DNA from: a virus
Taxonomy: Duplodnaviria > Caudoviricetes
Strand: one strand, 5' to 3'
Virus record (IMG/VR): IMGVR_UViG_3300031992_000076
Location: 1 to 64,000 of that record
Length of the DNA stretch: 64,000 nt
Shown here: positions 2,786-58,500 of the stretch, one piece after another
Layout: every line of letters starts with the position of its first letter
How positions within the stretch are numbered: position 1 is the stretch's first letter
Program-made: the position numbers and the translations under genes
Notes under the pieces: generated by a model
Told to the model about the DNA's origin: nothing
The model's database searches: none
What the model saw: only the letters and a program-made list of their open reading frames with translations

Positions 2786-4852
2786 ATGAAAGCTCTAAGT
2801 TATTTAAAAGATAAAGATTTTTTAAGAGCTTTGGATAATTATAATAATAAATTTTTCTGGGTTAAAATTGAGATTTTGAATTCAGATGATACTCCCATAA
2901 AGTGTATAGAGGGGCGGGTTCAGCCTGGCTCCTCTATTAATTTAAATGGAGATTCTTCAGTAAGGAGAACTTGTAATTTAACTCTAATTGCAGATGAAGA
3001 AGAAAATGATTTAACAGATATTAATAATCTTCTTTCTGCTAATAAAAAAATTAAAATTTTTGAAGGAATTAGAAATGATATTAATGCCAATTATGATAAG
3101 GTAATCTGGTTCCCATTAGGCGTTTTTATAATTACTCAACCTAATATTACACATAATGCTAATAGTTGTATAATTCAATTAAATTGTAAAGATAAAATGT
3201 GTTTATTAAATGGCGAGTGTGCGGGAATTTTACCTACCTCAATTACTTTTCATGAGTATGATCAAACAATTGGGTTAATGGAATGTAGCGGAGATCCGAG
3301 GTACGATGCTACCATAGAGCCAAACAATTATACTATTTATTCTTATAATGAAAATTATTATAGTTGGACTTTTGAATATGGGTGGAAAGAAGAACCTAAT
3401 GCAAATGCAGTTGGTACTACTATTTCAGTTCCTCAATTAATATATGATATTATTCAAACGCTCGTTTGTAATTATGGCGGCATTGGATTAGATAAAATTT
3501 TTATTAACGACATCCCGCTGAAAATAAAACAGATTGTAAGATATATTGGTTCAAATACATTATATTACAATGTGGATACTAATTTTTATACAACAGACCA
3601 ATCTTATGTTACCAATGATGGAACTTGGAGAACTTTTAATTATAATGAAGATGTTGGTTATGTTTATACTGATTTTGTATATCCTGGTTCTCTTGTTTCT
3701 GGTATTGGAGATAGTATTTGTTCTGTATTAGATAAAATAAAAGATACTTTAGGAAATTATGAATACTTTTTTGATGTTGAAGGTAATTTTATATTCCAAG
3801 AAATTAAAAATTATTTAAATACATCTTATGATCCAACAAATAAGTATAGATTAGATAATGGAAGAAAAATAGCTATTGCTAGTAATGGATTGAGTATTAT
3901 TGATGATACTAACTATGAAGTTGATTTTTATAGTAATACAAAATCTATTTATACTTTTAACGAAGGAAATGGATTAGTTACTTCTTTTTCTAACTCTCCA
4001 AATTATAATAATTTAAAAAATGATTTTCATATTTGGGGAGAAAATGATGAGGGATATGCTATTCATTATCATTTAGCTATTAAAAATAAACCTACAATTA
4101 TGAATACTTATTCTGTTGTTTTTTTACAAAAGAATGATGAATATACCGGCGGTTTGCGCTTGGCTAATTTTGGTGAAGTGGGAGAAGAATATACTCCTGC
4201 AGATTGGAGAGCTGAATTATATCTCCAAGGATTGACAAAGAAACAGCAACAAATTAGACCTGATGTTTATGAACAAGAATTATTAGATTTATTTGATAGT
4301 ATATATAATTTTAAAGAAAAAAAATTTAAAACTGATTTAGTTTATCATCCTAATGATCTAAAATATTTCTTTGATTATTTAGAGCCAATTAGTTCATTAT
4401 CTGATTGCTCTGTTGATATATTAGGAACTAAAATTTATTCTTATCAACAAGATAAGATTAATAGATTATATAATGTTGATATACCTAATGTGATTTTGAT
4501 TGATACGACTATGGATGCGGTAAGCAGACAAAAGCTTGTAGATGAATGTGAGCGAGAAGGGCAGCCTTTTGCCAATGTGAATTCTGTTGTGTATTCAAAT
4601 ATTGCGGTCGGTACAGCTGGATATACTGCAGAAGAGACTTCCCGCAACTTATTGTATCAATACACAAATTATAATGAAGGAATATCAATTCAAAGTATTC
4701 CAATTTATTATTTAGATGTGAATAGTAGAATTACTGTTCAAGATAGAATGTCTGGAATATATGGAGATTATATTATTAAAAGTATTTCTTTGCCTTTAAG
4801 CGCAGGAGGTACTATGACAATAACCGCCTCTAGGGCATTAGAAAGAATTTAA
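2786..4852 (+). CDS. Putative baseplate hub/tail-associated protein (DUF5048-like), 688 aa
   Basis: N-terminal 'GSSINLNGDSSVRRTCNL…IWFPLGVFII…DKMCLLNG' and C-terminal 'IPIYYLDVNSRITV…GDYIIKSISLPL…MTITA' pattern typical of Firmicute phage hub proteins. Confidence 0.65.
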   Translation: MKALSYLKDKDFLRALDNYNNKFFWVKIEILNSDDTPIKCIEGRVQPGSSINLNGDSSVRRTCNLTLIADEEENDLTDINNLLSANKKIKIFEGIRNDINANYDKVIWFPLGVFIITQPNITHNANSCIIQLNCKDKMCLLNGECAGILPTSITFHEYDQTIGLMECSGDPRYDATIEPNNYTIYSYNENYYSWTFEYGWKEEPNANAVGTTISVPQLIYDIIQTLVCNYGGIGLDKIFINDIPLKIKQIVRYIGSNTLYYNVDTNFYTTDQSYVTNDGTWRTFNYNEDVGYVYTDFVYPGSLVSGIGDSICSVLDKIKDTLGNYEYFFDVEGNFIFQEIKNYLNTSYDPTNKYRLDNGRKIAIASNGLSIIDDTNYEVDFYSNTKSIYTFNEGNGLVTSFSNSPNYNNLKNDFHIWGENDEGYAIHYHLAIKNKPTIMNTYSVVFLQKNDEYTGGLRLANFGEVGEEYTPADWRAELYLQGLTKKQQQIRPDVYEQELLDLFDSIYNFKEKKFKTDLVYHPNDLKYFFDYLEPISSLSDCSVDILGTKIYSYQQDKINRLYNVDIPNVILIDTTMDAVSRQKLVDECEREGQPFANVNSVVYSNIAVGTAGYTAEETSRNLLYQYTNYNEGISIQSIPIYYLDVNSRITVQDRMSGIYGDYIIKSISLPLSAGGTMTITASRALERI

Positions 4853-4873
4853 TAATAGAAGGAGGAAAAAGGA

Positions 4874-5716
4874 ATGAGTTATGTATTAGGGCAATATAAT
4901 AAAAATAAAAATGTCCTTGATGATAATATTTTTATGACCTTATTAACTAATGGTATTCCTAAGCGTAGACCAAGCAAAGGAGATATTGGTATTGGTACTA
5001 GCTCTAGTTTTTTTAGCGATGAATGTGTTCAAGTTGATAATCTTTTAAGCACTAAAAATTATTATTTTCATGGGAAAATAAAAAGAATGACTAGTAATCA
5101 AGTTTTTTATATTAAGTTAGTAAACTTTGATAGTGAAGATAATATAGAGCAATACATTAAAACAGTTACAATTTCTAAAGGCGACCCAAATGAATGGGTA
5201 GATGTAGAATTCTTATTTTCTCCTCTTGTTTCTTTTGACTGTATTTTATTTGAACTTCAAAGAACAGTAGATGATTATAGAGAAGAGATTAGATATCCGC
5301 TTATCGCTTATGAAGAATTAAGTGTTATTAATAATATTATCAGTTCTAAAATTTATGATGGAGTTAAACTGATTAAAATAGGTGTACAAAGCAGACCTGG
5401 AATATTAATGTGTATTAACGGCGAAGAGATTAGAACCAGTAGAACTGGTGTTTATGAATTAAAAAATGGAGTTATGACAGTAAGCTTTTTTTCTGTTTGT
5501 TCTGCTATAAAAGAAGGCGGGAATGACATGAGTAATTGGATTACTACTGTTAATGCTCAAGTTAATGATATTATAGCTAGGCGGGAAGCAGGAATTATTA
5601 CTCCTGAAGAAGCCGAAGCTGAAAAAGCTGCTATTAATAGTAATTGTTTTTTTGGTTCAACTAAACAAGATAGAAATATTGATAGTTTTACCTTAGATTA
5701 CATGTATAATGAATAA
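4874..5716 (+). CDS. Putative tail/baseplate protein, 280 aa
   Basis: GGAGG RBS; lies within the structural operon. Confidence 0.55.
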   Translation: MSYVLGQYNKNKNVLDDNIFMTLLTNGIPKRRPSKGDIGIGTSSSFFSDECVQVDNLLSTKNYYFHGKIKRMTSNQVFYIKLVNFDSEDNIEQYIKTVTISKGDPNEWVDVEFLFSPLVSFDCILFELQRTVDDYREEIRYPLIAYEELSVINNIISSKIYDGVKLIKIGVQSRPGILMCINGEEIRTSRTGVYELKNGVMTVSFFSVCSAIKEGGNDMSNWITTVNAQVNDIIARREAGIITPEEAEAEKAAINSNCFFGSTKQDRNIDSFTLDYMYNE

Positions 5717-5731
5717 AAAGGAGGAATAGAC

Positions 5732-7981
5732 GTGGGAATGGAGTCATTTTATGGTGGCCGTATGGGCGCATCATTCGTGATTGTAAAACAATTTGACGGA
5801 ATTGATATTCCTCAAGTTTCTGGGTCTGAGGTTTATAAAATTAAATATTTAGCAACCACAGATGATGGACAGTTTTTTATTTATGATACTGTTAATCAAT
5901 GTTTTATAATCAGAGATGAACATAACTATTTAAATTATAGATGGAAACAGCAAGCTTTAAATGGTAGTACAGTAGATACAAAACCTGATAAGGCGGGAAC
6001 TGGTGCTACTAGTCAGCAAGTTTTAGATACCGTATTAGCAGAAGGTATGATTCAATGCTTTGAAAGAGGTGGAGAAACTACTGATATTGTTAATTATGGT
6101 GAATATGTTATTATAGATACCCCAGATAAAAATAATCCTGAAAATGGTAAAGTTTATCGTAGAGGGATGAATTTTGATAGAAATGAAAATAATTCATTAG
6201 CAGGCGCCGAATATATTGGTCAAATAGTAGGTCCTCAGGGTTCTACTCCAGAGTTAGGAATGGACCACTATGAACAAATTATTCAAGATCAGAGTCAATA
6301 TGCTAATGTTCAGACTATCACTTATAATCAAGCTAATTTAGATATTGTGCCTGGTTATAAAGATGGTGTAGCTAATGATAATATTCAACTTGTTTCCGCT
6401 AATTTCCTTGATGAATTTGGTACAGTTAAAGGTTGTGTAATTGGTTTTAAAACTCCTACATTGGTAGAGGATTTTGATGCAGAGTCTGTTAGTCCTTATT
6501 ATCATAGAGATCCAGTTACGGGTGTTAGCACAGATTTGATTGAGGAAGATCCTACCCAGTATCAGGGCGGGCAGTGGTTACATCCTTTTTATCAAAAGTG
6601 GAAAATTAAAGTACCTAGAGGTTATCATGGTGTGAATGTAACAGATTTGGAAAAAGTTCACACTAAAACAATGCCTAAGAATTATAAACAGGCTGGGTTC
6701 CCTGGTGCTTCACTTTGGACAGATGTTGATTGTACTGTTCCTTATAACGTAGGTAGTGCTCAAGGTGTTTTACCGAATGAAACAACAGTATTAAGAGAGC
6801 AAGAGGGTCATATTTATTTACCTACTGACCCTAAAATATATGATGCAGATGATAGTGTTATTTCTTGTAAAGTTAATTACAATGGAATTGAGTTGTATGT
6901 TAAAAAAGAAGATTGTTATGGAGATATTTTAAGATATAAAGAAACCTCTTATGATAATCAGCAAACTGGAGAAATAACATATCATGATTTAGGTGATTTT
7001 AATAATATTTATAGAATGGTAATGGATGCGGAGGGTACTATTACTGTTTATTATACTAATGGACAACCTTCAGCTAGTTTACCAAAAGCTTTGACTTGGA
7101 TTAATGATATTTCATTAAGTCAGCAAGGAGACTTTGTAGTATTATTTAATAATGATAAAATAAGCGGCGGTAGGTATTATACTACATTAGACTGGGTAGA
7201 TCATGTTGAATTAGATAATACTGGTACTTTAAAGTTTTATTATAATACCAACCATGATTATCCTGCTTATCAATTTGATAATGTTATAGAATATTTTTCT
7301 GACGCTGAAATTGAAACAGAAGATCCAATATTACAGAAAGAGGGTACTGGTGATCAAAGAATTCATTTGACCTTTAATAGTGGAAGAGAAGAAATTATTG
7401 GAAATCCGCTTAACTATATTATTGAAACAACAATCTCTGTCCCAAGTGTAAATTATCCTGATGCTCCTTACTCACATTTGTTGGTTTATTATGCGGATCC
7501 CGCCTTGAGACAAACCTTCTCTAGTAAATGGGTTACGTATCCTAGCGGGAAGTACCCCAATGAAGTTTGGACTCAATGGGTTGATTTAGGAGATGTAAGA
7601 GGAGATAGCGGCGGTCTTCATATATTAGAAGATGTTGCTAGCGTTAATGATCTTAATACTGAACCTGATGGTTCCGGCACCTGGATCCCGCCTGAACAGT
7701 TAACGGATTCTCATGGAACTTATATTAATCCTGAAGGTGCTGGATGGGCTGTTACAATTACTCCAGTTGGTTCTTCAACTTCAACTATCTATTGTTTTGA
7801 TTATAATGATAGAATATGGTATCCGATTGGATCGATTAATCCAGAGGCAGTTTCACCCGAGTCAATTATTACTAAGTCTGATGCTGTGGGAGACACCCAC
7901 CTCCCGCCCGCAAGTGTTATGAATACATTAAAGGAAAATGGATTTTGGTTTGCAACTGAAACAGCTTATTTTGCTGAATAA
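5732..7981 (+). CDS. Putative tail-fibre/baseplate protein, 749 aa
   Basis: GTG start with GGAGG RBS; 'MESFYGGR.GASFVIVK' start and 'GAEYIGQIVGPQG' motif seen in large gut-phage tail proteins. Confidence 0.55.
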   Translation: MGMESFYGGRMGASFVIVKQFDGIDIPQVSGSEVYKIKYLATTDDGQFFIYDTVNQCFIIRDEHNYLNYRWKQQALNGSTVDTKPDKAGTGATSQQVLDTVLAEGMIQCFERGGETTDIVNYGEYVIIDTPDKNNPENGKVYRRGMNFDRNENNSLAGAEYIGQIVGPQGSTPELGMDHYEQIIQDQSQYANVQTITYNQANLDIVPGYKDGVANDNIQLVSANFLDEFGTVKGCVIGFKTPTLVEDFDAESVSPYYHRDPVTGVSTDLIEEDPTQYQGGQWLHPFYQKWKIKVPRGYHGVNVTDLEKVHTKTMPKNYKQAGFPGASLWTDVDCTVPYNVGSAQGVLPNETTVLREQEGHIYLPTDPKIYDADDSVISCKVNYNGIELYVKKEDCYGDILRYKETSYDNQQTGEITYHDLGDFNNIYRMVMDAEGTITVYYTNGQPSASLPKALTWINDISLSQQGDFVVLFNNDKISGGRYYTTLDWVDHVELDNTGTLKFYYNTNHDYPAYQFDNVIEYFSDAEIETEDPILQKEGTGDQRIHLTFNSGREEIIGNPLNYIIETTISVPSVNYPDAPYSHLLVYYADPALRQTFSSKWVTYPSGKYPNEVWTQWVDLGDVRGDSGGLHILEDVASVNDLNTEPDGSGTWIPPEQLTDSHGTYINPEGAGWAVTITPVGSSTSTIYCFDYNDRIWYPIGSINPEAVSPESIITKSDAVGDTHLPPASVMNTLKENGFWFATETAYFAE

Positions 7982-7988
7982 AAATTTT

Positions 7989-8019
7989 GAGAGGGAAGTA
8001 ATTCCCTCTCTTTTCTTTT
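7989..8019 (+). terminator. Rho-independent terminator
   Basis: GAGAGGGA-AGTAAT-TCCCTCTC followed by TTTTCTTTT. Confidence 0.8.
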
Positions 8020-8099
8020 GGTCAAAATTAAGTAATATAGTCAATATAGTTTTAAAATAATATTAGTAAATAAAAATCTTTGCAAAGGAGTAAAAGGAT

Positions 8100-8729
8100 A
8101 TGGCTACAGGTCAAGTAATTAGATATTTAAGACGCAAAGGCAATTCGGGCTTTACTGAGCCTATCTCTTGGCTAGGTGCAGAACAGCGCTTTGTTGGTGC
8201 TTTGCGTAATAGTGCAGTAAATAATTTAGAAGAGCAATATGCGGTTGGTACTGATAGTTATACAGAAATGTATGAAGATGCTCAAGGAAACTATATTATT
8301 GAAAAGAGCTTTTGTATTACTGATATAGATGCTTCAGAAGAAGTTGATATACAAGATCGAACAGAATATTATAAATTAATAACTACAATTTATAAAAACA
8401 CAGGTGGAGCTGGAAATTATTATTTTGAAGGTGATGATACTGTTTTTGCAAACAGTGTAGAAGATGCTATTTTTGGTGATGGTAGTATAGATTATCCTGA
8501 TGAAGAAATGCTTTATTTAATTAATGATGAAATTTTTGAATGGGATAGTAATGATGACCTTCAAATTCATGCTAATAGTGGTTTTCTTAATTCAAGAAAA
8601 GATGAGCTTTATTTTATTAAGAAAAATGAAACTCCACAATTAATTTTAACAAAGTATACAACCAAAAAATATGATGATAATGGTAAATTAATAGTGCGTA
8701 AAAAAGTTGTTAATGCACTAAATCCATAA
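8100..8729 (+). CDS. Hypothetical (probably structural) protein, 209 aa
   Basis: AAGGAG RBS; lies between tail genes. Confidence 0.6.
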   Translation: MATGQVIRYLRRKGNSGFTEPISWLGAEQRFVGALRNSAVNNLEEQYAVGTDSYTEMYEDAQGNYIIEKSFCITDIDASEEVDIQDRTEYYKLITTIYKNTGGAGNYYFEGDDTVFANSVEDAIFGDGSIDYPDEEMLYLINDEIFEWDSNDDLQIHANSGFLNSRKDELYFIKKNETPQLILTKYTTKKYDDNGKLIVRKKVVNALNP

Positions 8730-8752
8730 TTTAGATGAAAAGGAGTTAAGAG

Positions 8753-11263
8753 ATGAGTGTTACAAAGAAAATTAGAATACAGAATCCTTCTGGAAGTAGT
8801 TCTTCTAGTAGAGATATCGGAGCAGAAGCTCAGTATGTAGATGTAACAAGAAATGCTCAAGGCGAAATTGTCACTGACTTATCTCAAAAGCAACCTACTG
8901 ATACAGTAGAGAGTTTATCTTCTACCTTAAAAAATATTGAAGATCATATGGATGATCCTATTGTTCTTGATGATGTTCCTACTCAAGGTAGTCAAAATGG
9001 AGTAAAGTCAGGCGGTGTTTATAACGCTATTCAAGCAGATAGTTCATTAAACACAACAAGTACAAAACCAGTTCAGAATAAAGTTATAACAAACGCATTA
9101 AATGGTAAGATAGATACTTACATGACTCAACCTGGTCGTTGGGATACCACACCTACTGAAAATAGTATTAAACCAGTTACTTCTGGTGGTATTTATGCAG
9201 CTTTAGCAAACGCTGGAAAAGATGATAATTTTATTGGTACAGTAGCAGAATGGAATGCTTTAACTGATACTGAAAAAGCGCAGTATAGAACTTATGATTT
9301 AACCGATGATTTTAATGGAGTTGAAGTAGATGATGCTCTTTCGCTTACTTCTACAAATCCAGTTCAAAATAGAATTATTACAGCTAAAATTAATTCATTA
9401 CTTAGTGGGTCAGAAATTTTAATTGATTATGACCCTAATGAGATGGCAGGGATAACTATAACAATATACCACGAAGCTAGCGCAGAGGGTCATACACCCG
9501 AGAGTTATACAGTAACCCTCGATAATACAGGCGAAGTTGAGATTGATGTTAAAAACCTTGGAGACTGGACAATAGCATGGACACACGAAGGACAACAGTA
9601 TAGCGAGAACTTCAGAGTAGAATACTTTGGTCTTTACCACATCATACTTCATGAAGGATTTACGTGGAGACAGTGGGTGGTAGCAGGTGGCTTACCTATC
9701 AATAAGTATAACAGCCTTGCTGATTTACTTGCCAATCAGGAGGATATAAGAAGGCTTTGTACCATTCATGCCGCTGTTGATTATATGTGTGAGTTTGCAA
9801 GTGTAAACAACGACTTAGAGACAATAATCAATACAGGTTTATTTGCTAAGTGGGTAAACCTTAGAGATTATGCTCTTGATAACATGGAGGCTAATTCAGC
9901 CATAAAGGATGCCATGGATGAAGCAGGTTTATACGGCTATGGTGAATTAGTCTATGAGGATGATGAGTGGAAGCCTAAAGGCAATGTACCTGTTATGACT
10001 TCGGATACTGCTCCTTATGGGGAAGCTAGTGCAGTTAGTCCTCATAGTTCAGCACCTGCTTATAAAGCGTTTGACGGAGATACTTCTACACATGCTGCAT
10101 TTACAAATGCTGTAAATAACTATCTTAGGTACAAATTTGCAAATCCCGTAAAAGCCAAAAAAGCAACAATCTATCAAGCTGATAACAATAAGTATGTAAT
10201 TAAGGCATCTAATGATGGCTCTACTTGGGATACTGTATCAGCAGAATTTACAGGGACAGGAACTGCCGAAGAAATAGAGATTTCATTAACAACAAATAAC
10301 TACTATTTGCAGTATGAACTTGTTGAAACTGAAAAGTTAAACACAGGTGCTAGTTATACATCCGTTACAGAACTCCAATTCTATGGCAGAGAACTCAAAG
10401 TATCAGTACCTACTATGACTTCTAACACCGCTCCTTACGGGGAAGCTAGTGCTAGTGTGGCTGATAGCGGTTATGAGGCATATAAAGCTTTTGATGGGAA
10501 CAATAGTACTTATTGGTTTAAAGATGGTGGTGTAGGTCAATGGGTTCAGTATGATTTTAAACGTCCTGTAAGGCTAACACAGCTCTATGCAATGGGATAC
10601 GGAGTTGATAACTGCTTTAAAGATGTTGAAATCTACGGAGTACAAAACCAAAATGCAACGAAGATTGCTGATTTAACTTTTGAGAATGTGGCATCACTAC
10701 AAAAGAAAGATGTTGACAGCAACGTTGCCTATACGGGTTTTAGGTTTAAGATTGTTGCAGACCACGGTACCGTTATAAATAATGCTGTTAAAACTCTCCA
10801 ATTCTACGGCAAAGACTACTCCGAAAAAGAATTTGCCAATGATGGTAGTAAATGGCTGTATGACCACGGTGTGGAGTTGGAAGAATTTATTTACAACACT
10901 GTTGGTAGCGGAAGTGTATCAGAAGAAGCGAATGATGAGATTTATATTGAAATCCCTGCCTCATCTCAAAGAGCCGCAAGTGCTTTGGCTAGTGTTGATT
11001 TAACCAATCATAGTATATTAAGGGCTGTTGCAGGTGAACAGTGGGTTGCCACTGTAGAACTAACTGTTGGGCCAAATGCTAGACCTTCGTATGCATCACA
11101 CGGCATTGAAGCATATGTTGATATAGCCCCTCCTGTTAGTAAAAATAACTTGGCATTATCAGTTGCTTCATTCAATACAAGCAAATATGTTGGAATTTAT
11201 GCAGGTAATAATACTGGTTCAGCACATTGCTTAGGCACTATTAGTGAATTGTGGTTAGAATAA
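8753..11263 (+). CDS. Tail fibre / receptor-binding protein with two discoidin (F5/8 type C)-like domains, 836 aa
   Basis: N-terminal fibre repeats (D.(P/L)T..S..PV(Q/T)(N/S)..I/V); two 'VP.MTS.TAPYGEASA…AYKAFDG…(W/L)..Y.F..P' domains; followed by chaperone-like genes. Confidence 0.75.
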   Translation: MSVTKKIRIQNPSGSSSSSRDIGAEAQYVDVTRNAQGEIVTDLSQKQPTDTVESLSSTLKNIEDHMDDPIVLDDVPTQGSQNGVKSGGVYNAIQADSSLNTTSTKPVQNKVITNALNGKIDTYMTQPGRWDTTPTENSIKPVTSGGIYAALANAGKDDNFIGTVAEWNALTDTEKAQYRTYDLTDDFNGVEVDDALSLTSTNPVQNRIITAKINSLLSGSEILIDYDPNEMAGITITIYHEASAEGHTPESYTVTLDNTGEVEIDVKNLGDWTIAWTHEGQQYSENFRVEYFGLYHIILHEGFTWRQWVVAGGLPINKYNSLADLLANQEDIRRLCTIHAAVDYMCEFASVNNDLETIINTGLFAKWVNLRDYALDNMEANSAIKDAMDEAGLYGYGELVYEDDEWKPKGNVPVMTSDTAPYGEASAVSPHSSAPAYKAFDGDTSTHAAFTNAVNNYLRYKFANPVKAKKATIYQADNNKYVIKASNDGSTWDTVSAEFTGTGTAEEIEISLTTNNYYLQYELVETEKLNTGASYTSVTELQFYGRELKVSVPTMTSNTAPYGEASASVADSGYEAYKAFDGNNSTYWFKDGGVGQWVQYDFKRPVRLTQLYAMGYGVDNCFKDVEIYGVQNQNATKIADLTFENVASLQKKDVDSNVAYTGFRFKIVADHGTVINNAVKTLQFYGKDYSEKEFANDGSKWLYDHGVELEEFIYNTVGSGSVSEEANDEIYIEIPASSQRAASALASVDLTNHSILRAVAGEQWVATVELTVGPNARPSYASHGIEAYVDIAPPVSKNNLALSVASFNTSKYVGIYAGNNTGSAHCLGTISELWLE
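9986..10452 (+). repeat. Two 47-nt diverged direct repeats (9986-10032 and 10406-10452) at the start of the duplicated discoidin-like domains
   Basis: GTACCTGTTATGACTTCGGATACTGCTCCTTATGGGGAAGCTAGTGC vs GTACCTACTATGACTTCTAACACCGCTCCTTACGGGGAAGCTAGTGC. Confidence 0.85.
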
Positions 11264-11276
11264 GGAGGATTAACAC

Positions 11277-49738: not shown

Positions 49739-50176
49739 TTACTTATCCTCTTTTGACATATTTTTTTTATTGCGGATTGAATTAAGTAAAAACTCTCGTC
49801 TTCCAATAAAATTGTCAGATTCTTGTAATAATGCATTGATTTCGTCAGTTAAATCATTTACTTTTTTAATTCTTCGATTTAATTGTCGATATATTGCTTT
49901 AGCGGTGGGTGAATCTTTGTCAAAATTTTTATATCCTCCACAAGCTTTAACAAAATCAATTGCTTCATCTGATTTCTGTTTAGCAAGCTTTCTTTCATAT
50001 TTAAGAGCATTTATAGTTGCGCGGAGTTCAGCCAAGGTGCATCCAGTAAGTTCAGATTCTTTATCTAAATCATCTGGATGTAAACGCGCACAACCAATAA
50101 AAGTTTTTCCTAAATGCTCCATATATACTAAAGATTTGCCTGTTTCTTTATTGTATTTATAACCTATAAAGTTCAC
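49739..50176 (-). CDS. Hypothetical protein, 145 aa
   Basis: 'FIG.A..HPDD…G..LAE.RA.I' family in large Firmicute phages. Confidence 0.7.
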   Translation of the reverse strand: MNFIGYKYNKETGKSLVYMEHLGKTFIGCARLHPDDLDKESELTGCTLAELRATINALKYERKLAKQKSDEAIDFVKACGGYKNFDKDSPTAKAIYRQLNRRIKKVNDLTDEINALLQESDNFIGRREFLLNSIRNKKNMSKEDK

Positions 50177-51250: not shown

Positions 51251-51524
51251 TGTTTATTTTACTCCTAAACTCACTTAATGTTAAAATCCTATTTCCATCT
51301 TCATCAAAATTATGATTATTAAATTCTAAAAGAAAATCTTCATAAGTATATCCAGACCATGGGCGGCATTCAGCATGATTTGTCTCCATTTTACAATTTA
51401 AACAATATAATTTTTTTAAATGTCCTGCTTCTCGTTCTGCACCTTTTTTCCTAGCTATAGGAATGCCCCTCCTGCTACACTTAACACAATAAAATTCATT
51501 ATCTACAATTAATTTACTTCCCAT
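51231..51524 (-). CDS. Zn-ribbon protein resembling ribosomal protein L33, 97 aa
   Basis: C..C…RK…H.KKLYC..C…TNH.E. Confidence 0.5.
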   Translation of the reverse strand: MGSKLIVDNEFYCVKCSRRGIPIARKKGAEREAGHLKKLYCLNCKMETNHAECRPWSGYTYEDFLLEFNNHNFDEDGNRILTLSEFRSKINNERNKA

Positions 51525-51598
51525 ACATTAAAAAATCATCTCCTTTTTATTTTTTCTTATAATAATATTATAACATATTTTTTATAAAAAATAAAGAG

Positions 51599-51832
51599 TT
51601 AATTATTTGTTTTAAAATATTGACAAAATGAATCAAACTCAAGTGCGGATTCTGGATAAATTACTACGGCGCCCTGACTCATATCAAGAGAAAGAACTCC
51701 AAGTAAAGATTTACCATCCACTGCAAATTTTCCTCTCTTTACGATAATATCTCCATCAATCTGGCTAGCTTTATCTACAAAAAGATAGAGATCTGATATA
51801 TTTTCAATTTTAATTTCTGTAAATTTAGTCAT
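51599..51832 (-). CDS. HPr-like protein, 77 aa
   Basis: 'VDGKSLLGVLSL' matches the HPr Ser46 region; no His at the His15 position. Confidence 0.7.
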   Translation of the reverse strand: MTKFTEIKIENISDLYLFVDKASQIDGDIIVKRGKFAVDGKSLLGVLSLDMSQGAVVIYPESALEFDSFCQYFKTNN

Positions 51833-51833
51833 A

Positions 51834-52085
51834 TTATTTCTCCTTTATTCCCAAATATTTAATTCGGTCAAGAACTTCGTCTTTTATTTTTTCATCTGAA
51901 TATAAATAATTATATAATTGAAATTCTTCTTTACTATTGGTTCTTTCTGACAATACTTTTCTAGCATAATCTAAATCTATATCAATAGTAAGAGTAATTA
52001 TATTTTTCTTTTTAGGAGAGGTGTAAGAATTATTTGAATTAATTAATTGAAACATTGTATTTATATTGTTAATTTTGTTCACCAT
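51834..52085 (-). CDS. Hypothetical protein, 83 aa
   Basis: ORF in the operon. Confidence 0.55.
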   Translation of the reverse strand: MVNKINNINTMFQLINSNNSYTSPKKKNIITLTIDIDLDYARKVLSERTNSKEEFQLYNYLYSDEKIKDEVLDRIKYLGIKEK

Positions 52086-52242
52086 CTTTTTTCTCCAATT
52101 TAATACAGATTTTATAAACTAAAAAATTCATAAAATTAATAACTATATCAAAATAAGCATAGACACAAAAATATAAAATTGTTCTTTCTTTTGTTGCCAA
52201 TGTGTTTGTTAAATAACAAAATATATAAGCAAGAATAAACAT
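52069..52242 (-). CDS. Small hydrophobic protein, 57 aa (MFILAYIFCYLTNTLATKER…), not in ORF track
   Basis: First ORF after the promoter at 52266; AAGGA RBS. Confidence 0.5.
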   Translation of the reverse strand: MFILAYIFCYLTNTLATKERTILYFCVYAYFDIVINFMNFLVYKICIKLEKKDGEQN

Positions 52243-52333
52243 AAATATTTTTCCTTTTATTATATATTATAACATAAATTTTTATAAATGTCAAGGCGGG
52301 AGTTGGCTCTAGACCGATTCCCGCCTAATTAGA

Positions 52334-53605
52334 TTACTGATGATATTTTACAAGGAAGGCAGGATCAACGCATTTAAAGCTATCCTTACCATCCACAGTT
52401 CTAAATACAATACCTTCTTTCATTTCGCCGTCAATAGCAGAACCCGCACTATGAACAAACTCACGAAGTTCATCTACAGTAGAAGGAAGTGTCATACCTT
52501 CTGATATAATAGGTACAACAGGGATACCTAAAGGTTCAAGAGCATCTCTCATTTCAAGAGTTCCAACCCTACCGCAATCGGAATAAAGTAAATTAAACGC
52601 CCTTATTTCCTGATCTTTCATTCCATAGTCTCGTTTTTGGACGTTTTGCCCAAAAGTTTCTGCCTGAACTGCGACCCATTCAGCGGAAGGTCTATTTTCA
52701 AGAAGTTTCTGAAGAGCTTCTTTAACATTATACTTTTCGCTCATTTTAATATATACATTTGAACCAATTGTATCAGAATAATAATTCCTTTCTGCTCTTG
52801 CAGGGGTATCAAAAATTACATTTCTGCTACATACAAGATATTCTCCCTTTTTAAGCCCTCTAGATCTGGACATATAGAAAGTAGTACTAGTTCCATCAAT
52901 TTTTTCTGTAGCTATCCAGATTTTTGAGCCATCTTCAAGTGTCCAGGTTCTATTCTCGATTCTCTCTTCATCTGTCTTCGGAACTCCTTCAATCCAGCTA
53001 CGAGAATCTTTTTTCTTACCCCAAAGGAAGATAAAAAACTGACGAAGGAATTTATTTTTCTTTATAACTCTACCATATTTTTTAGCAAAATAAGGATGTC
53101 TAGCTAAAACCGCATTAATTTTAGCATCGGGATTAGATTTAGCTTTTCTCTTGTTATCTTCGGCTACGGCATAAGTTACACCAAGTTTTTCAGTAAGAAA
53201 ATCGCCATTTTTATAATCTACATTCTCTTTAAAGAAAGAATCTTTTCCAAAATGAAGATAAAACTGACCATCTCCATCCTGATACTCAAATCCACCGAAG
53301 TCCTCAGCACTCATAAGCAGACCCTGAGAATAAAAGCCTGGGTTCTTTCCACCGAAGGTGTACTTCTGAGTCTTCACATTTCCGCGCTTTTTGATAAGAA
53401 ATGCAAACTCAGGCTTGTTTATATCTACATGAGAGTCGATCTCAAAGTAAATTGCAAGATTTCCAGGCTGGAAAGTACCTTTACGAACCATGATTTTCCA
53501 TCCCCCTACAACTGCAGCTTCGCAATTATCAGAACCAACAATAGGTTCAATAGCATCAATGCGAGTTACATAAGCGAGCTCTCTCTGATTTTCTTTGTTG
53601 AGCAT
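52334..53605 (-). CDS. ATP-dependent RNA ligase (Rnl2/DRB0094-like), 423 aa
   Basis: N-terminal 'ELAYV..ID.I.PI.GSD..E.A.VGGW…YFEIDS'; motif I TEKIDGTS; AETFG, FN, EGIVFR, SFK. Confidence 0.88.
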   Translation of the reverse strand: MLNKENQRELAYVTRIDAIEPIVGSDNCEAAVVGGWKIMVRKGTFQPGNLAIYFEIDSHVDINKPEFAFLIKKRGNVKTQKYTFGGKNPGFYSQGLLMSAEDFGGFEYQDGDGQFYLHFGKDSFFKENVDYKNGDFLTEKLGVTYAVAEDNKRKAKSNPDAKINAVLARHPYFAKKYGRVIKKNKFLRQFFIFLWGKKKDSRSWIEGVPKTDEERIENRTWTLEDGSKIWIATEKIDGTSTTFYMSRSRGLKKGEYLVCSRNVIFDTPARAERNYYSDTIGSNVYIKMSEKYNVKEALQKLLENRPSAEWVAVQAETFGQNVQKRDYGMKDQEIRAFNLLYSDCGRVGTLEMRDALEPLGIPVVPIISEGMTLPSTVDELREFVHSAGSAIDGEMKEGIVFRTVDGKDSFKCVDPAFLVKYHQ

Positions 53606-53607
53606 AA

Positions 53608-53769
53608 TTATCTACCTTCTTTCTTCATAAAATATTCGCAATCTTCATTTTCTTTATAAAACAAAGTATACGTATGAATGCCCTGTTTCTTTATAGCTCT
53701 TTTACATTCCTCTTTCTTAGGACAATTATCTGGATTTCCACAGAAACAATAATCATCATCAAACCACAT
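53608..53769 (-). CDS. Small Cys-rich protein, 53 aa (MWFDDDYCFCGNPDNCPKKEECKR…), not in ORF track
   Basis: GAGG RBS; fills the gap. Confidence 0.6.
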   Translation of the reverse strand: MWFDDDYCFCGNPDNCPKKEECKRAIKKQGIHTYTLFYKENEDCEYFMKKEGR

Positions 53770-53956
53770 AATTCATTACCTCACAAACTCTATCAACTAA
53801 TTCATCCTTTTCTTCTTCCGTTATTTTTTTCCATTTCCAACACCAATCAATCCTATTACAAATCCATTCTATACTTTTATCATGCCAGGGTTTATATTCT
53901 TCATAAGATTTTAATGCTTTATCAACTTGGTCATAATAGTCAATTCTTTTTGGCAT
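53759..53956 (-). CDS. Hypothetical protein, 65 aa
   Basis: Promoter-proximal ORF with RBS. Confidence 0.7.
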   Translation of the reverse strand: MPKRIDYYDQVDKALKSYEEYKPWHDKSIEWICNRIDWCWKWKKITEEEKDELVDRVCEVMNYVV

Positions 53957-54061
53957 TATTTTTTCCTTTCTTTATAATAATATTATATCATATTTTTTTA
54001 ATAATGTCAATAAGAAAGGCGGGAACCAGGTTAATTCCACTTTAACCCAGCTCCCGCAATT

Positions 54062-54337
54062 TTATTTTGCAACAGGAATAATTGAATTTTCATCAGATGT
54101 AGGTACAATATCTTCACCAATCTGAACGCCATTTTCATCAAGTTCTTTAATCTTAATTACAGTATTCTTCTTAAGATTTCCGCAGCTCTTTGTAAATAAG
54201 TTTAGAGCATTTTTAGCATCAAACTCAACTCTGCCAGTAGGATTCGTTAAAGTTAGAACTGTAGTTCTCATAATCGGGGTCCCGCCATATTTCTTTTCTT
54301 TTGTTGGATACCACTCAATAGCATAAAATCTTTTCAT
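54062..54337 (-). CDS. Hypothetical protein, 91 aa
   Basis: RBS; coupled to the phosphatase gene. Confidence 0.7.
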   Translation of the reverse strand: MKRFYAIEWYPTKEKKYGGTPIMRTTVLTLTNPTGRVEFDAKNALNLFTKSCGNLKKNTVIKIKELDENGVQIGEDIVPTSDENSIIPVAK

Positions 54338-55146
54338 TAGTTATTATCTCCTTTATCTTCATCAAAATAAATAATTTTAAAAGTATCTAAATCAATAAGT
54401 GCTATTCTATTACTTATAATAGTGCAGAGGTCTATGTCAAATTTATGACCATCACAATATTTTATTATTTCTGGCTTTTTATCTTCTTTTGCTTCAGTAA
54501 GCCATTTTCTTTTTTGTATAATTTCCTCTTCTGTGAAGGTGGGCTGATTTTTATATCCATACAAATACTTAAGATATTGAACAGGAGTATGTCCATGAAT
54601 AAGATAGGTATTATCTGGATTAAAGTCTTCTTTTTCATACCCATCATTCCAATCATCATAGAAGTGATCTCTATCCCAAACTGGGTTATGTTGTCTATGA
54701 GGAGTGATAAAAGGGCTATATCCAGCATGCTCAAGAATTACTTTATGTCCTAAAGGAGATTCATAAATTAATTCAGTAGGCATTTTAAGAATAGCTTCTC
54801 TAATGGCATAAATATCTTGCACATTCATATCCTGAAGTGTCTTTGCAGTTACCTCTCCACCATTACCGTACCATAAATTATACCCATTTCCGCCATAATA
54901 GCTAATATCTTCAATCTCTCTTGCTACATAAGGAATAGCATCAGCCATCATTTCTTCATGATTACCTTTAATGAATTTTACTCTATGGTCATTAATAAGA
55001 GTCTGGAATATTTTAATTCCATCTGGACCTCTATCTATAGCATCACCAAGAAAATAAAGAGTATCATCTGGTTCTATGAAATTTAATACTTTTTCAGCCA
55101 ATGTCCAATTTCCATGAAAATCAGCACAGGCATATGTTTTTTTCAT
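54337..55146 (-). CDS. PPP-family (lambda phosphatase-like) metallophosphoesterase, 269 aa
   Basis: ADFHG, LGDAIDRGPD, KGNHE, EHAG, HGHTP, DLC. Confidence 0.9.
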   Translation of the reverse strand: MKKTYACADFHGNWTLAEKVLNFIEPDDTLYFLGDAIDRGPDGIKIFQTLINDHRVKFIKGNHEEMMADAIPYVAREIEDISYYGGNGYNLWYGNGGEVTAKTLQDMNVQDIYAIREAILKMPTELIYESPLGHKVILEHAGYSPFITPHRQHNPVWDRDHFYDDWNDGYEKEDFNPDNTYLIHGHTPVQYLKYLYGYKNQPTFTEEEIIQKRKWLTEAKEDKKPEIIKYCDGHKFDIDLCTIISNRIALIDLDTFKIIYFDEDKGDNN

Positions 55147-55152
55147 AGTATA

Positions 55153-55419
55153 TCACCTTCTTTTTAATTCTTCAAAATTAATTATCTCATATTCATATTT
55201 TTCAGGTAAAGATTCAATTTCCCAATTTTGTGCAGAATTTATAACCATTCCCACAATACTTGGGTCTGTAAAAGCTAGTTCCATTGCGTGAGGAAGAGCA
55301 AAATTATTATAAAAAGCGTTGGCGAAATTACAAGCTTTCGCATCACTATTGAAAACTATTACTGTTCCTTCTTTTGTAGTAAAATATTTATTTAAGTTGG
55401 GCTGAAAAATAATAAACAT
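55153..55419 (-). CDS. Hypothetical protein, 88 aa
   Basis: Promoter-proximal ORF with AAGGAG RBS. Confidence 0.7.
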   Translation of the reverse strand: MFIIFQPNLNKYFTTKEGTVIVFNSDAKACNFANAFYNNFALPHAMELAFTDPSIVGMVINSAQNWEIESLPEKYEYEIINFEELKRR

Positions 55420-55521
55420 GATATAACTCCTTTACTTTTATAATAATATTATAACATAAATTTTTAAAAAATGCAAATAAAAAAATGGGAGGCTTAATAA
55501 AAGCCTCCCAAAATTCTAGTT

Positions 55522-58500
55522 CTACTTTTTATCTTTTTCTTCTTTTTTTATATAATGATGAATACCATACCCTCCAGCAAGGATTAAAATGATAATTAAT
55601 AATATCCACCACAATGAAAGAGTTTCATTATTTTCTTTAATTCCATCTGATAAAGCAATTGTTTGCTGTGCAATATCTGTAAGACTAGGTCTTTTATCAT
55701 CTGGATTTTCTTCAGACTGCTGATTGTTATTATCAATTTCATTATCATCAACATTTGTATTTAAGTTATCTCGTTCTGCTCCATTATTTTCTTGCACAGT
55801 AGGATTATTATTACCTGTTATTGTAAGAGGAGCATCGGCTAAAGGAAGAATTGTAGCAGGAATATCATCTCCAGATGTTTCAATTTCTACTGTATTAATT
55901 TCTTTAATTTTTTCATCAAGAGTTTTCTTAATATCAGCTAATTTCTTATTTAATTCATCTTTTTTATTTTTAGTAATTTCAAAATCTTTTAATGCTTGTT
56001 TTAATTGATTTTCTAAATCACCAAAATCAGTAATATCTTTATCAATAGATGAATTTGCTTTCATCTTACTAATAGCAATCTGTAAATCTTTTACATTCTG
56101 TTTTGCTTTAATAAAATCTTCGTTAGCTGCTTTTGCTTTATCTGCGATATCTTGATACTTTTGAGCGAGATCTGAAGCGAATTCTACTGCGTCCCTAAAG
56201 TTACGAGTAGCCTGGGTTTCCGCATTATCAGAAATCATACTATCTTTATTATAAGGCTGTTTTCCATCAGTCTTATAATCCATACCTTCCGCTTTATCTT
56301 GAGTTAAAAGAATAATATTACCAGTATACCAATTATCATTTCTATACTCTTTTACAAGATTTACTTTATCAGTATTATAGATAGTCTGTGCTACTATTTT
56401 ATCTTTTTCAATTAATACATTCTTAACTAAATAATTTAAAGTTTTAAAACTATAGGCTGTTGTAGCATTAACTGATGTTTTAACATTATATAATTTCGCA
56501 TTAGGATTAATTTTTTCAGTAGCTTTGATAGAAAATTCATTTTTTGCAGTCTCCTCATCATCTGCAATAACATCAATAGAAAGAGATTTGGCATCAATTA
56601 TATACACACTTGCAGAACCAATATTCCAATCAGTTGGATCAATACCTACATAAATTTTACCTTCTTTAGCAAATTTTTCTGTAAGAGATTTCTCAAGCTT
56701 CTCTTTGTCATCACCACAACCGATAATAGCATCATGTAACCATGAGTAACTTGCAGAATTTGTTTTTGTTACTTTAGCATATTCTACAATTACTTTATTA
56801 TTTTCAGCATAATGAGCAATTTCATCATAGTCATGCTGTTCGCCAATACCTAATAAATATGTTCCATTTGAGAATACATATTTATCACTATATCTATTCA
56901 TTGTATCTGTATATTTTTCAGAAAATGTTCCAGATATTGAATAAGTTGTTTTAGAAGTAGATTCATATCCAGTTAAATCTGCGATATCACCTTTCTTAAA
57001 TTCTTTATTATTGATAATAATAAAATCATTATCTCCTAAAGCATCGATCTTTTTCTGAAGTTCCTGTTTATAAGCGGTTTGCGCTTGCTCTTCATCATCA
57101 TAAGAACTCGTTGCAGAAAGAGAAGCTCCAGTATAAGTAGTTGTTGAAACATCTCTTTGAACAGTTTTAATTAATTTACCATTTTCAAAGGCATAACTAA
57201 TTTTTTCTTCTCCAATAAAGTTCTTTTGAGTTGTAGTTGTAGTTTCTTCAGTAAAATATACTTTTTCCTGACCGCTTTCCGCAACTTTAAAATATTCATT
57301 ATTTTCCTTAATATATTTAATTCCATTCTTTTCTAAAGAATTAGTTGAATTAAGAGTATTAAGTTCTTCTGTAGTAAGTTCAACATTATCTAAAGCATTA
57401 TGCTCAGTTTTTTCAAAGATAACAATGCCAGGCCATTTAGCATCATTAGTGCGATTTCCATTAGCAATTTTATAGTTTAAATTCTTTTGAACTGTATTTC
57501 CTTCTTTATCAAGATATGTTACAGTACAATAATTTAATACATCACCTTGAGTACTCTTTGTACCATCTGCATAGGTATAATTACCTGAATATCTATGCCA
57601 TTCAATATTTACGAATTCTCCTTCAAGCATTTGAGGGACATAGTAAAATTCAACAATAGAATCAAAGAGCTCTGCATAAGAGCCTTTGCCTGTAAAATTA
57701 ACTGATTGATTATTATTTAATTTAGTGGCAATTGAATTCTCTAATGCCTGAACATAACCCATCCCAGAAGCAAGATAATCTTCTTTAGCTTTGCGGGCGG
57801 CGGTCTCGAGATCGGCAGTCTTAGATATAAGATCTTCTAATCTATCTTCCGCTTCATTAGCCTGGATTCCCGCAACATCTTTGTTTAATTCAAAATTATC
57901 TTGAGCATTTTCAAATTGAGATTTTAAAGAAGTATATGCACTTACCGCCTCATTATAAGCAGCCTTATCTTTATCAAATTTTTCTTTGATATTATTTAAT
58001 TCTTTTTCTGTTTCTTCTACTGTTTTATTCATATTGGAAACAGCAGCACTAGCATCAGAATAAATTTGATTTAATTCTACTTCATTAGAAATTTTTTCTA
58101 AAACACTTGAACTAGCATCGAGAATTTTTTCAGTGTCTTCCACTTTTTTATTAGCTTTATCAGTTAAATCTTTTGCTTGATTAACTAAATCGGTAGCATC
58201 CTCTACTTTTTCTTTTGTTATATCTGCCTGCAATTCAGCACTTTCCGCTTTATTTTCAGCAATTATAGCAAATCCTTCAGCATTTTTACTAACTCCATAT
58301 GCTTTACGAACATCTACCTCAGGGGCATCTATTTTTCTTTCAATATTATAATCCATTTCTGCTTCAAGTTCTTCTTTTGTTTCTTGAACAGATTCAGAAG
58401 GGACTGTTTGTGCCTGGTCAATAGCTTCTAATGCTTCTCCTTCTCCTTTTTTAATATTGATATATGCTTCGTCTGTTTTTTCTTCCATTTTACTATTAAC

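What the first reader, a model, noticed from the sequence alone, without database searches (positions are those of the whole stretch)
3221..57868. GCGGGA/TCCCGC strongly over-represented on both strands: a Chi-like or protein-binding signature
By eye I counted at least 49 copies (23 GCGGGA, 26 TCCCGC), for example at 3221, 4640, 5517, 5581, 5993, 7545, 12571, 13918, 17629, 22037, 29373, 33426, 34661, 34679, 38503, 42232, 43701, 48972 and 57868. A zero-order estimate at about 28% GC gives only 2-3. Copies fall in different reading frames and force rare codons (ACT TCC CGC, ATC CCG CCT, GCG GGA), which points to DNA-level selection. I saw none in the tail-fibre module (about 8.0-12.5 kb) or the accessory array (about 58-64 kb), consistent with recent acquisition of those blocks. 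Known Firmicute Chi sites share a GCGG core (B. subtilis AGCGG, S. aureus GAAGCGG). One inference is that the phage loads itself with host Chi sites in both orientations to blunt AddAB degradation. An alternative is a binding site for one of its two wHTH proteins.
Basis: partly seen in the sequence, partly recalled or inferred. Interest (0 to 1): 0.75.

Follow-up and report, generated by a model that had tools for sequence, protein, structure and literature searches.

The report
Selected GCGG word in rumen phage
A large sheep-gut phage and its whole family carry the four-letter DNA word GCGG (here mostly as GCGGGA) 3 to 12 times more often than chance on both strands, by using rare codons. This points to an unidentified factor that reads the word, and a Chi-like signal for the host's DNA-end nuclease is the leading but unproven idea.

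Summary
In detail: 53 GCGGGA/TCCCGC in the window against about 4.3 expected. It survives a synonymous-codon shuffle (59 against 9.1 in genes).

The underlying unit is the tetramer GCGG/CCGC:
- It has 345 copies in the 77.9-kb record against 93 expected, and is the top 4-mer.
- It is enriched in all six frame and orientation classes and between genes.
- GCGGGA(A) is this lineage's preferred extension.

The trait across phages:
- It is shared by about 60 related gut and rumen phage contigs, with flanks that differ by lineage.
- It is absent from cultured relatives on Bacillus, Enterococcus, Mammaliicoccus and C. difficile.
- It is present in weaker form in a cultured Enterocloster phage.

Other findings:
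- Core genes carry more of the word than orphan genes or the tail-fibre block.
- Between close strains, GCGG turns over more slowly than any other CG-rich word.
- No methylase, Vsr or Gam gene was found.
- The host is unknown, and sampled Clostridia genomes show no matching bias.

Chi-like reading by a host AddAB-type nuclease is my best guess (about 0.3). Dyads (GCGG-N3-CCGC), the phage's own recombination genes and the lack of polarity argue against it.

Earlier follow-ups in this scan reported the same word bias on other genomes of this family.

The parts
1..64000 (.). Field of 260 GCGG/CCGC words (133 GCGG and 127 CCGC on the + strand, 4.06 per kb). It includes 53 GCGGGA/TCCCGC hexamers, the first at 1257 and the last at 57868.
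   Evidence: Enrichment holds under the synonymous-codon shuffle and in all frame and orientation classes and intergenic DNA.
1977..1987 (.). Dyad GCGG-N3-CCGC, one of seven in the window. The others are at 7493-7503, 23589-23599, 30528-38 and 33358-68, plus the two listed separately below.
   Evidence: One search lists them. The full record has 8 against 0.38 expected (Poisson P 8e-9). Pooled clade loci have 79 against 4.6.
13918..13928 (.). Dyad built on the hexamer: GCGGGAA followed by CCGC.
14373..14406 (.). Two dyads (14373-14383 with N3, 14395-14406 with N4) in the gap between the genes at 13651-14358 and 14432-14839. They form a terminator-like inverted repeat.
7908..12570 (+). Tail-fibre block with no hexamer and near-chance GCGG (1.3x). 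Its genes have little or no match in relatives.
   Evidence: No match in cultured phages.
57874..64000 (.). Accessory array of small orphan ORFs and RNA genes, with no hexamer and GCGG at 1.5x.
36475..36837 (-). Winged-helix protein (TrmB/MarR-like, 120 aa). It is a candidate double-strand reader and is conserved in relatives G406 and G408.
39355..39663 (-). Second small winged-helix protein (102 aa, weak MarR_2 match).
27668..36390 (-). Replication and recombination module, which bears on the Chi reading. It holds a RecD/Dda-like helicase, a RecJ-like exonuclease, a primase, a DnaB-like helicase, a Sak4-like annealing protein and a gene of unknown function beside it.
   Evidence: It is syntenic with Enterococcus phage VRE9_1.
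12218..12736 (+). RuvC-like Holliday junction resolvase.

Best explanation
Shown. GCGG is a DNA-level word. In this lineage its preferred form is not-C, GCGG, then G or A, then A, most often GCGGGA(A). It stands at about 3.5 times its chance density on both strands of the phage's long-resident genes. It is made largely through rare synonymous codons. Between strains it is lost more slowly than any comparable CG-rich word. The trait belongs to a whole clade of 130-165 kb gut and rumen phages. It cuts across the phylogeny of their replication proteins.

Inferred. The word is read by a trans-acting factor of the host group. The most likely candidate is an AddAB-type helicase-nuclease, which would treat GCGG-core words as Chi-like signals. 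Each encounter would switch the enzyme from degrading the phage DNA end to loading RecA. A dense cover in both orientations would then protect any end of a headful-packaged or broken genome and feed recombination-dependent replication. The flank differences between lineages would reflect the Chi variants of different hosts.
For: - The bias is at the DNA level and strand-symmetric.
- It is clade-wide, 2.6-5.2x in about 60 loci, with lineage-specific flanks.
- Trait-negative relatives share the same pol, primase, helicase, RecJ and Sak4 orthologues at 31-51% identity: VRE9_1 at 1.0x, SPbeta at 0.96x, phi6255 at 0.88x. The more distant Enterocloster phage CB473P1 (25-36%) is positive, with GCGG at 2.3x and GCCGC at 105 against 18. 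So the trait does not follow the phage replication machinery.
- Core genes stand at 3.65x and orphan genes at 2.17x. The tail-fibre block is at 1.3x.
- In a strain triplet, GCGG was gained 31 times against 10.9 expected and lost 17 times against 20.4. The sibling words GCGA, GCGC and GCGT were lost 35 times against 21.3 (binomial P 0.013).
- GCGG has the lowest turnover of all 17 CG- and GC-rich 4-mers tested in four strain pairs from two lineages.
- Experimentally defined Firmicute Chi sites end in GCGG.
- Chi-rich phages are an established class.
- No lambda-type or Mu-type Gam was found in complete relatives.
- Placement is Poisson-like, in both orientations and without terminal clustering. 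This fits a circularly permuted genome, as shown for the related Enterocloster phage PMBT24.
Against: - No host is known and no binding was tested.
- Endolysin-linked MAG contigs and 400 sampled Clostridia-phylum genomes gave no genome with a comparable bias.
- Two genomes examined over 400 kb have GCGG at 1.1-1.4x, with strand skew no larger than composition predicts.
- SPbeta, in the one host where AGCGG is proven, is not enriched.
- The phage carries a recombination module. In lambdoid phages that goes with few Chi sites.
- Enrichment of GCGG-N3-CCGC, CCGCGG and GCGGCCGC is not expected for a signal read on one strand.
- A 4-nt core is shorter than any known Chi.
- There is no upstream A or GAA preference. 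The informative flank lies 3' of GCGG.
Confidence: 0.3

Rival explanations
1. GCGG is a half-site for a sequence-specific double-strand DNA-binding protein, encoded by the phage (for example one of the two winged-helix proteins) or by the host. The protein coats or organises the genome. Single GCGG words would be weak sites, and GCGG-N3-CCGC dyads strong dimer sites.
For: - The dyad with a 3-bp spacer occurs 8 times against 0.38 expected here and 79 against 4.6 across the clade. Spacers of 1, 2 and 5 bp are near background.
- The bias is strand-symmetric.
- Both wHTH genes are conserved in G406 and G408.
- Flank preference largely follows the phage tree.
Against: - Only a few percent of the words are in dyads.
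- Sites lie at random inside genes, not in promoters.
- Half-sites 7 bp apart centre to centre are tight for MarR-type dimers (my own knowledge).
- The wHTH genes have no detectable match in the trait-positive phage CB473P1.
- No function is known that needs about 700 sites per genome.
Confidence: 0.2
2. No reader exists. The excess would be the equilibrium of a context-dependent mutation or mismatch-repair bias in these hosts or phages, for example T:G to C:G correction in the G_ _G context, as Vsr does for CCWGG in E. coli.
For: - Gains run through TG/CA to CG transitions (GCAG and GTGG to GCGG, 29 of 31). Losses run through the reverse changes.
- The ratio of gain excess (2.83) to loss deficit (0.83) is 3.4, which equals the standing enrichment.
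- All GCG-containing words show raised gains.
- Site sharing in the pol gene (5-7 of 20 at 74% aa identity) is about what density plus residual ancestry predicts, so no position-specific constraint is seen.
Against: - No C5 methylase, N4/N6 methylase or Vsr was found in near-complete genomes of the clade.
- The transition neighbours GTGG and GCAG are not depleted. That null is weak, though.
- The sibling words GCGC, GCGT and GCGA share the raised gains but are lost 2-3 times faster, so GCGG differs by retention.
- Orphan and tail-fibre DNA in the same genome lacks the bias.
- The sampled bacterial genomes lack the bias.
- Lineage-specific 6-7-mers, such as TGCGGGA at 100 against 5 in G406, are hard to obtain from a repair bias.
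Confidence: 0.2
3. GCGG-core words are initiation sites of the phage's DnaG-type primase, or of another strand-scanning replication enzyme. They would be kept dense because a GC-rich site is rare in 32% GC DNA.
For: - The phage has its own primase and DnaB-like helicase.
- Such sites are read on single strands in either orientation.
- The word is a short core with variable flanks, as at T7 primase sites (my own knowledge).
Against: - The primase orthologue of trait-negative VRE9_1 (38% identity) is closer than that of trait-positive CB473P1 (28%).
- Chance density, about 1.3 per kb, would already suffice for Okazaki priming.
- Spacing is not regular, with CV 1.07-1.32.
- The dyads are unexplained.
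Confidence: 0.07
4. The excess is a by-product of protein coding, codon or dicodon usage, or of a few GC-rich repeats or terminators.
For: - Some sites sit in terminator-like inverted repeats (14373-14406).
- GCG GGA (Ala-Gly) is the commonest single reading.
Against: - The excess survives the synonymous shuffle and codon permutation with z 18-19.
- All six frame and orientation classes and intergenic DNA are enriched.
- Sites share no extended flanks.
Confidence: 0.01

Closest known systems
Chi-rich phages: P1, the lambdoid LLS class and Pseudomonas MD8 (PMC12315714)
   Same: A short asymmetric host-type DNA word occurs far above chance in a phage genome, at the cost of codon choice. No Gam-type nuclease inhibitor was detected.
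   Different: - Those phages lack a recombination module, whereas this one has Sak4-, RecJ-, RuvC- and RecD-like genes.
- LLS Chi sites cluster at the genome ends and are polar, whereas here the words are uniform and in both orientations.
- There the word and its reader (RecBCD) are known, whereas here neither host nor reader is known.
- Here the core is only 4 nt, with dyads.
Firmicute AddAB Chi sites (B. subtilis AGCGG, S. aureus GAAGCGG)
   Same: They contain GCGG and are short. The B. subtilis site is only 5 nt and is therefore very frequent.
   Different: - In those sites the specificity lies 5' of GCGG (A or GAA). Here the 5' base is only 'not C' and the informative flank is 3' (G or A, then A).
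- SPbeta, a phage of B. subtilis, does not enrich AGCGG (0.90x).
Vsr/Dcm-driven word bias in E. coli (CCWGG excess, CTAG deficit)
   Same: The excess of a short word is sustained by T:G to C:G type changes and reduced loss.
   Different: No methylase or Vsr gene is present in the clade, no depleted transition neighbour was found, and the bias is absent from newer genes of the same genome.
Restriction-site avoidance in phages
   Same: It is also a DNA-level, strand-symmetric word bias. This genome shows it too: GATC at 0.50x, CCGG at 0.32x and GGCC at 0.47x.
   Different: The sign is opposite: GCGG is enriched, not avoided.
DNA uptake sequences (USS/DUS) of competent bacteria
   Same: A genome-wide excess of a short word in both orientations, arising from the preference of a DNA-handling machine.
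   Different: Those words are 9-12 nt, chromosomal and tied to natural competence. No such process is known for a lytic phage.

Membership tests
Chi site (recognition word of a RecBCD/AddAB helicase-nuclease) | The host helicase-nuclease recognises the word, with attenuation of degradation or a recombination hotspot. | not testable with these tools
A predicted complex would not address DNA recognition.
Chi site (recognition word of a RecBCD/AddAB helicase-nuclease) | The word is a short asymmetric sequence of 5-8 nt. | tested here: inconclusive
   The core is 4 nt and asymmetric. The preferred forms are 6-7 nt: GCGGGA(A) here and TGCGGGA in G406. Every GCGGNN class except GCGGAC (0.8x) is also above the null, by 1.2-4.4x.
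Chi site (recognition word of a RecBCD/AddAB helicase-nuclease) | The word is over-represented and co-oriented with replication in the host chromosome. | tested here: inconclusive
   The host is not identified. Two sampled Clostridia genomes have GCGG at 1.1-1.4x and skew of 0.55-0.72, as composition predicts. None of 400 sampled genomes is clearly alike.
Chi-rich phage class (P1, LLS) | The phage has no recombination module of its own and no RecBCD/AddAB inhibitor. | tested here: not met
   Sak4-like, RecJ-like, RuvC-like and RecD/Dda-like genes are present. Gam of either type was not found.
Chi-rich phage class (P1, LLS) | Sites are polar or clustered towards the packaged ends. | tested here: not met
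   In the window there are 133 GCGG and 127 CCGC. Enrichment is uniform at 2.3-5.7x along 100%-complete G408, apart from a final 402-bp remnant bin that holds 3 sites, and there is no terminal clustering. The ends of these genomes are not known.
Vsr-type very-short-patch repair bias | A cognate C5 methylase and a Vsr endonuclease are present. | tested here: not met
   PF00145 gave no match in G000 and four near-complete relatives. PF03852 gave no match in five other relatives, G410-G414; it was not run on G000. Host genes could not be tested.
Vsr-type very-short-patch repair bias | The T-containing neighbour word is depleted. | tested here: not met
   GTGG/CCAC stands at 1.03 and GCAG/CTGC at 0.98 of the synonymous-shuffle null. 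That null keeps codon usage, so the test is weak.
Operator or iteron sites of a wHTH regulator | Palindromic sites are concentrated in intergenic control regions. | tested here: not met
   297 of 345 words lie inside genes and placement is Poisson-like. A dyad does exist but mostly lies inside genes.

The most novel reading that the evidence does not exclude
A whole family of large AT-rich gut and rumen phages is under selection to carry a GCGG-core word at near host-like density, because a still unidentified genome-scanning factor of Clostridia-type hosts reads it. That factor might be an AddAB variant with a 4-6-nt Chi, or a new self/non-self discriminating system. The phage word spectra would then report the recognition words of uncultured hosts. 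The cultured Enterocloster phages (CB473P1, PMBT24) would make this testable.
Probability: 0.35. Interest if true: 0.8.

Novelty: new variant of a known kind. Interest (0 to 1): 0.6.

Why it matters
Phages usually purge short words; sustained enrichment of one is rare. So far it is tied only to Chi, in a few proteobacterial phages. Here the enrichment is strong, ancient (it spans phages whose polymerases are only about 60% identical) and maintained by slower loss. Some factor therefore touches these genomes every few hundred bases.

Identifying that factor would do one of two things. It would define Chi for gut Clostridia, where no Chi is known, with consequences for recombination, CRISPR spacer acquisition and phage engineering. 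Or it would reveal a new DNA-reading system. A cultured phage-host pair with a weaker form of the trait exists, so the question can be taken to the bench.

Tried and rejected
- Maximal-order Markov statistics were uninformative, because all sub-words come from the motif itself.
- Regular spacing was not seen: CV is 1.07-1.32.
- Position-specific conservation of sites in the pol gene was not shown. The 5-7 shared sites of 20 are about what density plus residual synonymous identity predicts.
- Host assignment failed by three routes.
  - Endolysin relatives point loosely to Oscillospirales and other Clostridia MAGs, but their contigs have GCGG at 2x or less.
  - The tail-fibre protein has no match in cultured phages.
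- No phage-borne methylase, Vsr or Gam was found.
- The 242-aa protein at 36910-37638 is shared with CB473P1 and was considered as a possible reader. It looks ThyX-like instead, on an Atlas lead only.
- A read-end or nick test was impossible, because only assembled contigs of the source sheep-gut runs are held; read laying was not used.
- TLR9-neutralising CpG context (10.1101/2025.05.15.652987) was considered and rejected. It would favour fewer CpG and would not single out GCGG over CCGG or CGCG, which are depleted here.
- The Halpern 2007 Chi paper is not held.


Full report
WHAT THE DNA IS

The window is the first 64 kb of a 77.9-kb IMG/VR virus record, estimated about 52% complete. It has 32% GC and comes from a sheep gut metagenome.

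The genes identify a large Firmicute-type phage:
- a PolC/DnaE-like polymerase (21506-25447)
- a RecD/Dda-like helicase
- a RecJ-like exonuclease
- a DnaG-type primase
- a DnaB-like helicase
- a Sak4-like annealing protein
- a RuvC-like resolvase
- an NAD-dependent ligase
- a two-subunit topoisomerase II
- an endolysin with glucosaminidase, amidase and SH3 domains
- an RNA-repair set
- a dUTPase

The replication block is syntenic with Enterococcus phage VRE9_1.

THE OBSERVATION

GCGGGA occurs 53 times in the window (24 on +, 29 on -). Dinucleotide-preserving shuffles give 4.3, with a maximum of 10.

With amino-acid sequence and codon usage of every gene held fixed, 9.1 are expected in genes and 59 are seen (z 18). 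Sites occur in all three frames on both the sense and antisense strands, and every class is enriched 3- to 18-fold.

THE REAL UNIT

- Among all 4-mers, GCGG/CCGC is by far the most over-represented: 345 against 93 by an order-1 model (z 26), and 297 against 125 under the synonymous shuffle.
- It holds 28% of all CG dinucleotides, although CG as a whole is depleted (odds 0.61).
- All six frame and orientation classes are enriched 2.0-5.8x. Intergenic DNA has 50 against 9-14 expected.
- The base before GCGG is almost never C (20 of 345). The bases after it favour G or A, then A.
- Every GCGGNN class except GCGGAC (0.8x) is above the null. GCGGGA is highest at 6.9x, GCGGGAA is 9x and GCGGGAAG is about 34x.
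- In the same genome GATC, GGCC, CCGG and GTAC are avoided. This suggests DNA that is exposed to restriction.

ARRANGEMENT

- The two orientations are balanced: 133 to 127 in the window.
- There is a modest excess on the coding strand (166 sense, 131 antisense), as expected for a G-rich word.
- Spacing is Poisson-like to slightly clustered, with CV 1.07-1.32 in three genomes. It is not regular.
- At short range some compound forms are strongly favoured. GCGG-N3-CCGC occurs 8 times against 0.38 expected here (P 8e-9) and 79 against 4.6 in pooled clade loci. CCGCGG, GCGGCCGC and GCGGCGG are also in excess, while neighbouring spacings are near background.

DISTRIBUTION WITHIN THE GENOME

- Genes with homologues in two near-complete relatives carry GCGG at 3.65x.
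- Genes without any homologue carry it at 2.17x.
- The tail-fibre block (8.0-12.5 kb) is at 1.3x and the 58-64 kb array at 1.5x.

The hexamer gaps alone are not significant.

DISTRIBUTION AMONG PHAGES

Eighty IMG/VR loci encode a polymerase 58-85% identical to this one. In nearly all loci of at least 10 kb, CCGC is the top 4-mer, at 2.6-5.2x.

The flanks differ by lineage:
- The sub-clade with this phage prefers GA after the core. Relative G406 has TGCGGGA 100 times against 5 expected.
- Other lineages prefer TGCGGC, TGCGGA, CTGCGG, GCGGAA or GGCGGC.

Cultured relatives with the same replication genes mostly lack the trait:
- VRE9_1 (Enterococcus): 1.0x
- SPbeta (B. subtilis): 0.96x, with AGCGG at 0.90x
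- phi6255 (Mammaliicoccus): 0.88x
- LIBA6276 (C. difficile): 0.59x
- Phass-1: 1.43x

Enterocloster phage CB473P1 (31% GC; I recall its host at roughly 49% GC) has GCGG at 2.3x and GCCGC at 105 against 18. Its replication proteins are more distant from this phage than those of the trait-negative VRE9_1. The trait therefore does not follow the polymerase, primase, helicase, RecJ or Sak4 phylogeny. This argues against a polymerase error bias or primase specificity, and points to something tied to the host group.

WHAT WAS NOT FOUND

- C5 methylase and N4/N6 methylase searches found nothing in G000 and four relatives that are 93-100% complete.
- Vsr was not found in five other relatives.
- Gam of either type was not found in the clade or in CB473P1.
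- No candidate host with the same bias was found. Endolysin-linked MAG contigs have GCGG at 2x or less. Five of their genomes have GCGGGA at 0.03-0.09 per kb, against 0.91 per kb in the phage.
- Samples from seven of 400 Clostridia-phylum genomes, chosen for a high GCGGGA-to-control ratio, have GCGG at 1.2-1.7x.
- Two genomes studied over 400 kb have GCGG at 1.1-1.4x, with strand skew as composition predicts.

These are not known hosts, so the host test is open rather than failed.

In GC-richer genomes of this kind GCGG stands at 9-13 per kb. The phage, at 4.4 per kb against about 1.3 expected, has moved towards host-like density.

DYNAMICS BETWEEN CLOSE STRAINS

The strain triplet was G410 and G412 (97.6% identical) with G411 as outgroup.
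- GCGG was created 31 times against 10.9 expected from context-free rates. Nearly all gains ran by GCAG or GTGG transitions.
- GCGG was destroyed 17 times against 20.4 expected.
- The sibling words GCGC, GCGT and GCGA share the raised creation but were destroyed 35 times against 21.3 expected (binomial P 0.013).
- In four strain pairs from two lineages, at 2-6% divergence, GCGG has the lowest turnover of all 17 CG- and GC-rich 4-mers tested, at 0.89-1.00 of expectation. The others stand at 1.03-4.6.
- The ratio of gain excess to loss deficit is 3.4, which matches the standing enrichment.

The word is thus set apart by retention. This fits purifying selection or a site-specific protective repair. 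These data cannot separate the two.

Site sharing in the polymerase gene (5-7 of 20 at 74% amino-acid identity, against about 1 under shuffling) is roughly what density plus residual ancestry predicts. What is maintained is density, not particular positions.

INTERPRETATION

Shown:
- a DNA-level, strand-symmetric word
- ancient in a phage clade
- stronger in resident genes than in newer genes
- retained preferentially between strains

Inferred: a trans-acting reader.

A Chi-like role for a host AddAB-type enzyme is my leading candidate (0.3), for these reasons:
- The only experimentally defined Firmicute Chi sites end in GCGG.
- Chi-rich phages exist.
- No Gam was found.
- Flanks vary as host-specific Chi variants would.
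- A uniform cover in both orientations is what a circularly permuted genome would need. The related Enterocloster phage PMBT24 packages by headful.

Against it stand:
- the phage's own recombination module
- the negative result for SPbeta
- the dyads
- the 3' rather than 5' flank information
- the lack of any host evidence

The rivals are:
- a double-strand binding protein using GCGG half-sites (0.2)
- a mutation or repair bias without a reader (0.2)
- a primase or replication site (0.07)
- a coding artefact (0.01, refuted)

RELATION TO EARLIER NOTES OF THIS SCAN

Other follow-ups reported the same GCGG/CCGC excess and the N3 dyad in related gut and rumen phages. They also mentioned that cultured phages carry such words.

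I reached the tetramer core, the clade-wide spread and the d=7 peak independently, before reading those notes.

- the comparison of core genes with orphan genes
- the gain, loss and turnover measurements
- the finding that the trait cuts across replication-protein phylogeny
- the negative searches for methylase, Vsr and Gam

Noticed in passing
window 17282-20893: The anaerobic ribonucleotide reductase gene is in pieces, with an HNH-type ORF (18892-19485) between them. This block also has low GCGG (1.8x in 18-21 kb).
   Followed up: no
window 36910-37638 (-): A 242-aa protein of unknown family (phrog_6721) is shared with G406, G408, Enterocloster phage CB473P1 and C. difficile phage LIBA6276. 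Atlas look-alike clusters carry ThyX (PF02511) in about 10% of members, so it may be a divergent flavin-dependent thymidylate synthase.
   Followed up: partly
window 50173-55146: An RNA-repair set lies next to the tRNA-rich region: an RNA ligase (52334-53605), a polynucleotide-kinase-like protein (50690-51250) and phosphoesterases (50173-50742, 54337-55146). This suggests a counter to tRNA-cleaving defences.
   Followed up: no
whole record G000: There is strong avoidance of GATC (0.50x), CCGG (0.32x), GGCC (0.47x) and GTAC (0.72x) under the synonymous-shuffle null. This is typical restriction-site avoidance and implies largely unmodified DNA.
   Followed up: partly
relatives G410, G412 and G411 (loci L231-L248): Among polarised strain differences, AT-to-GC changes (878) outnumber GC-to-AT changes (529), although GC content is only 27%. 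New CG-containing words arise 2-5 times more often than they are lost, yet remain rare. This suggests that young G/C and CG variants are later purged.
   Followed up: partly
loci L053, L054, L068-L072, L074, L077-L082: The polymerase match spans about 5.1 kb instead of 3.9 kb in these relatives. This indicates inserted elements (intein, intron or homing-endonuclease ORF) in the pol gene, as annotated for Enterococcus phage EF1.
   Followed up: no
OQ749652.1 (Phass-1; loci L185-L191): This human-gut phage of the 'code 15 clade' (44.5% GC) over-uses GCCGCC/GGCGGC (190 against 43) and CGCCG. This is a related GC-rich word family in a more distant relative.
   Followed up: partly
unnamed Clostridia genomes (for example G223, G357, G155, G305): In many complete genomes, the first nine GCGGGA sites listed on contig 1 are all on the + strand. 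In G057 and G305 the skew (0.69-0.80) is about what G-rich leading strands predict.
   Followed up: partly
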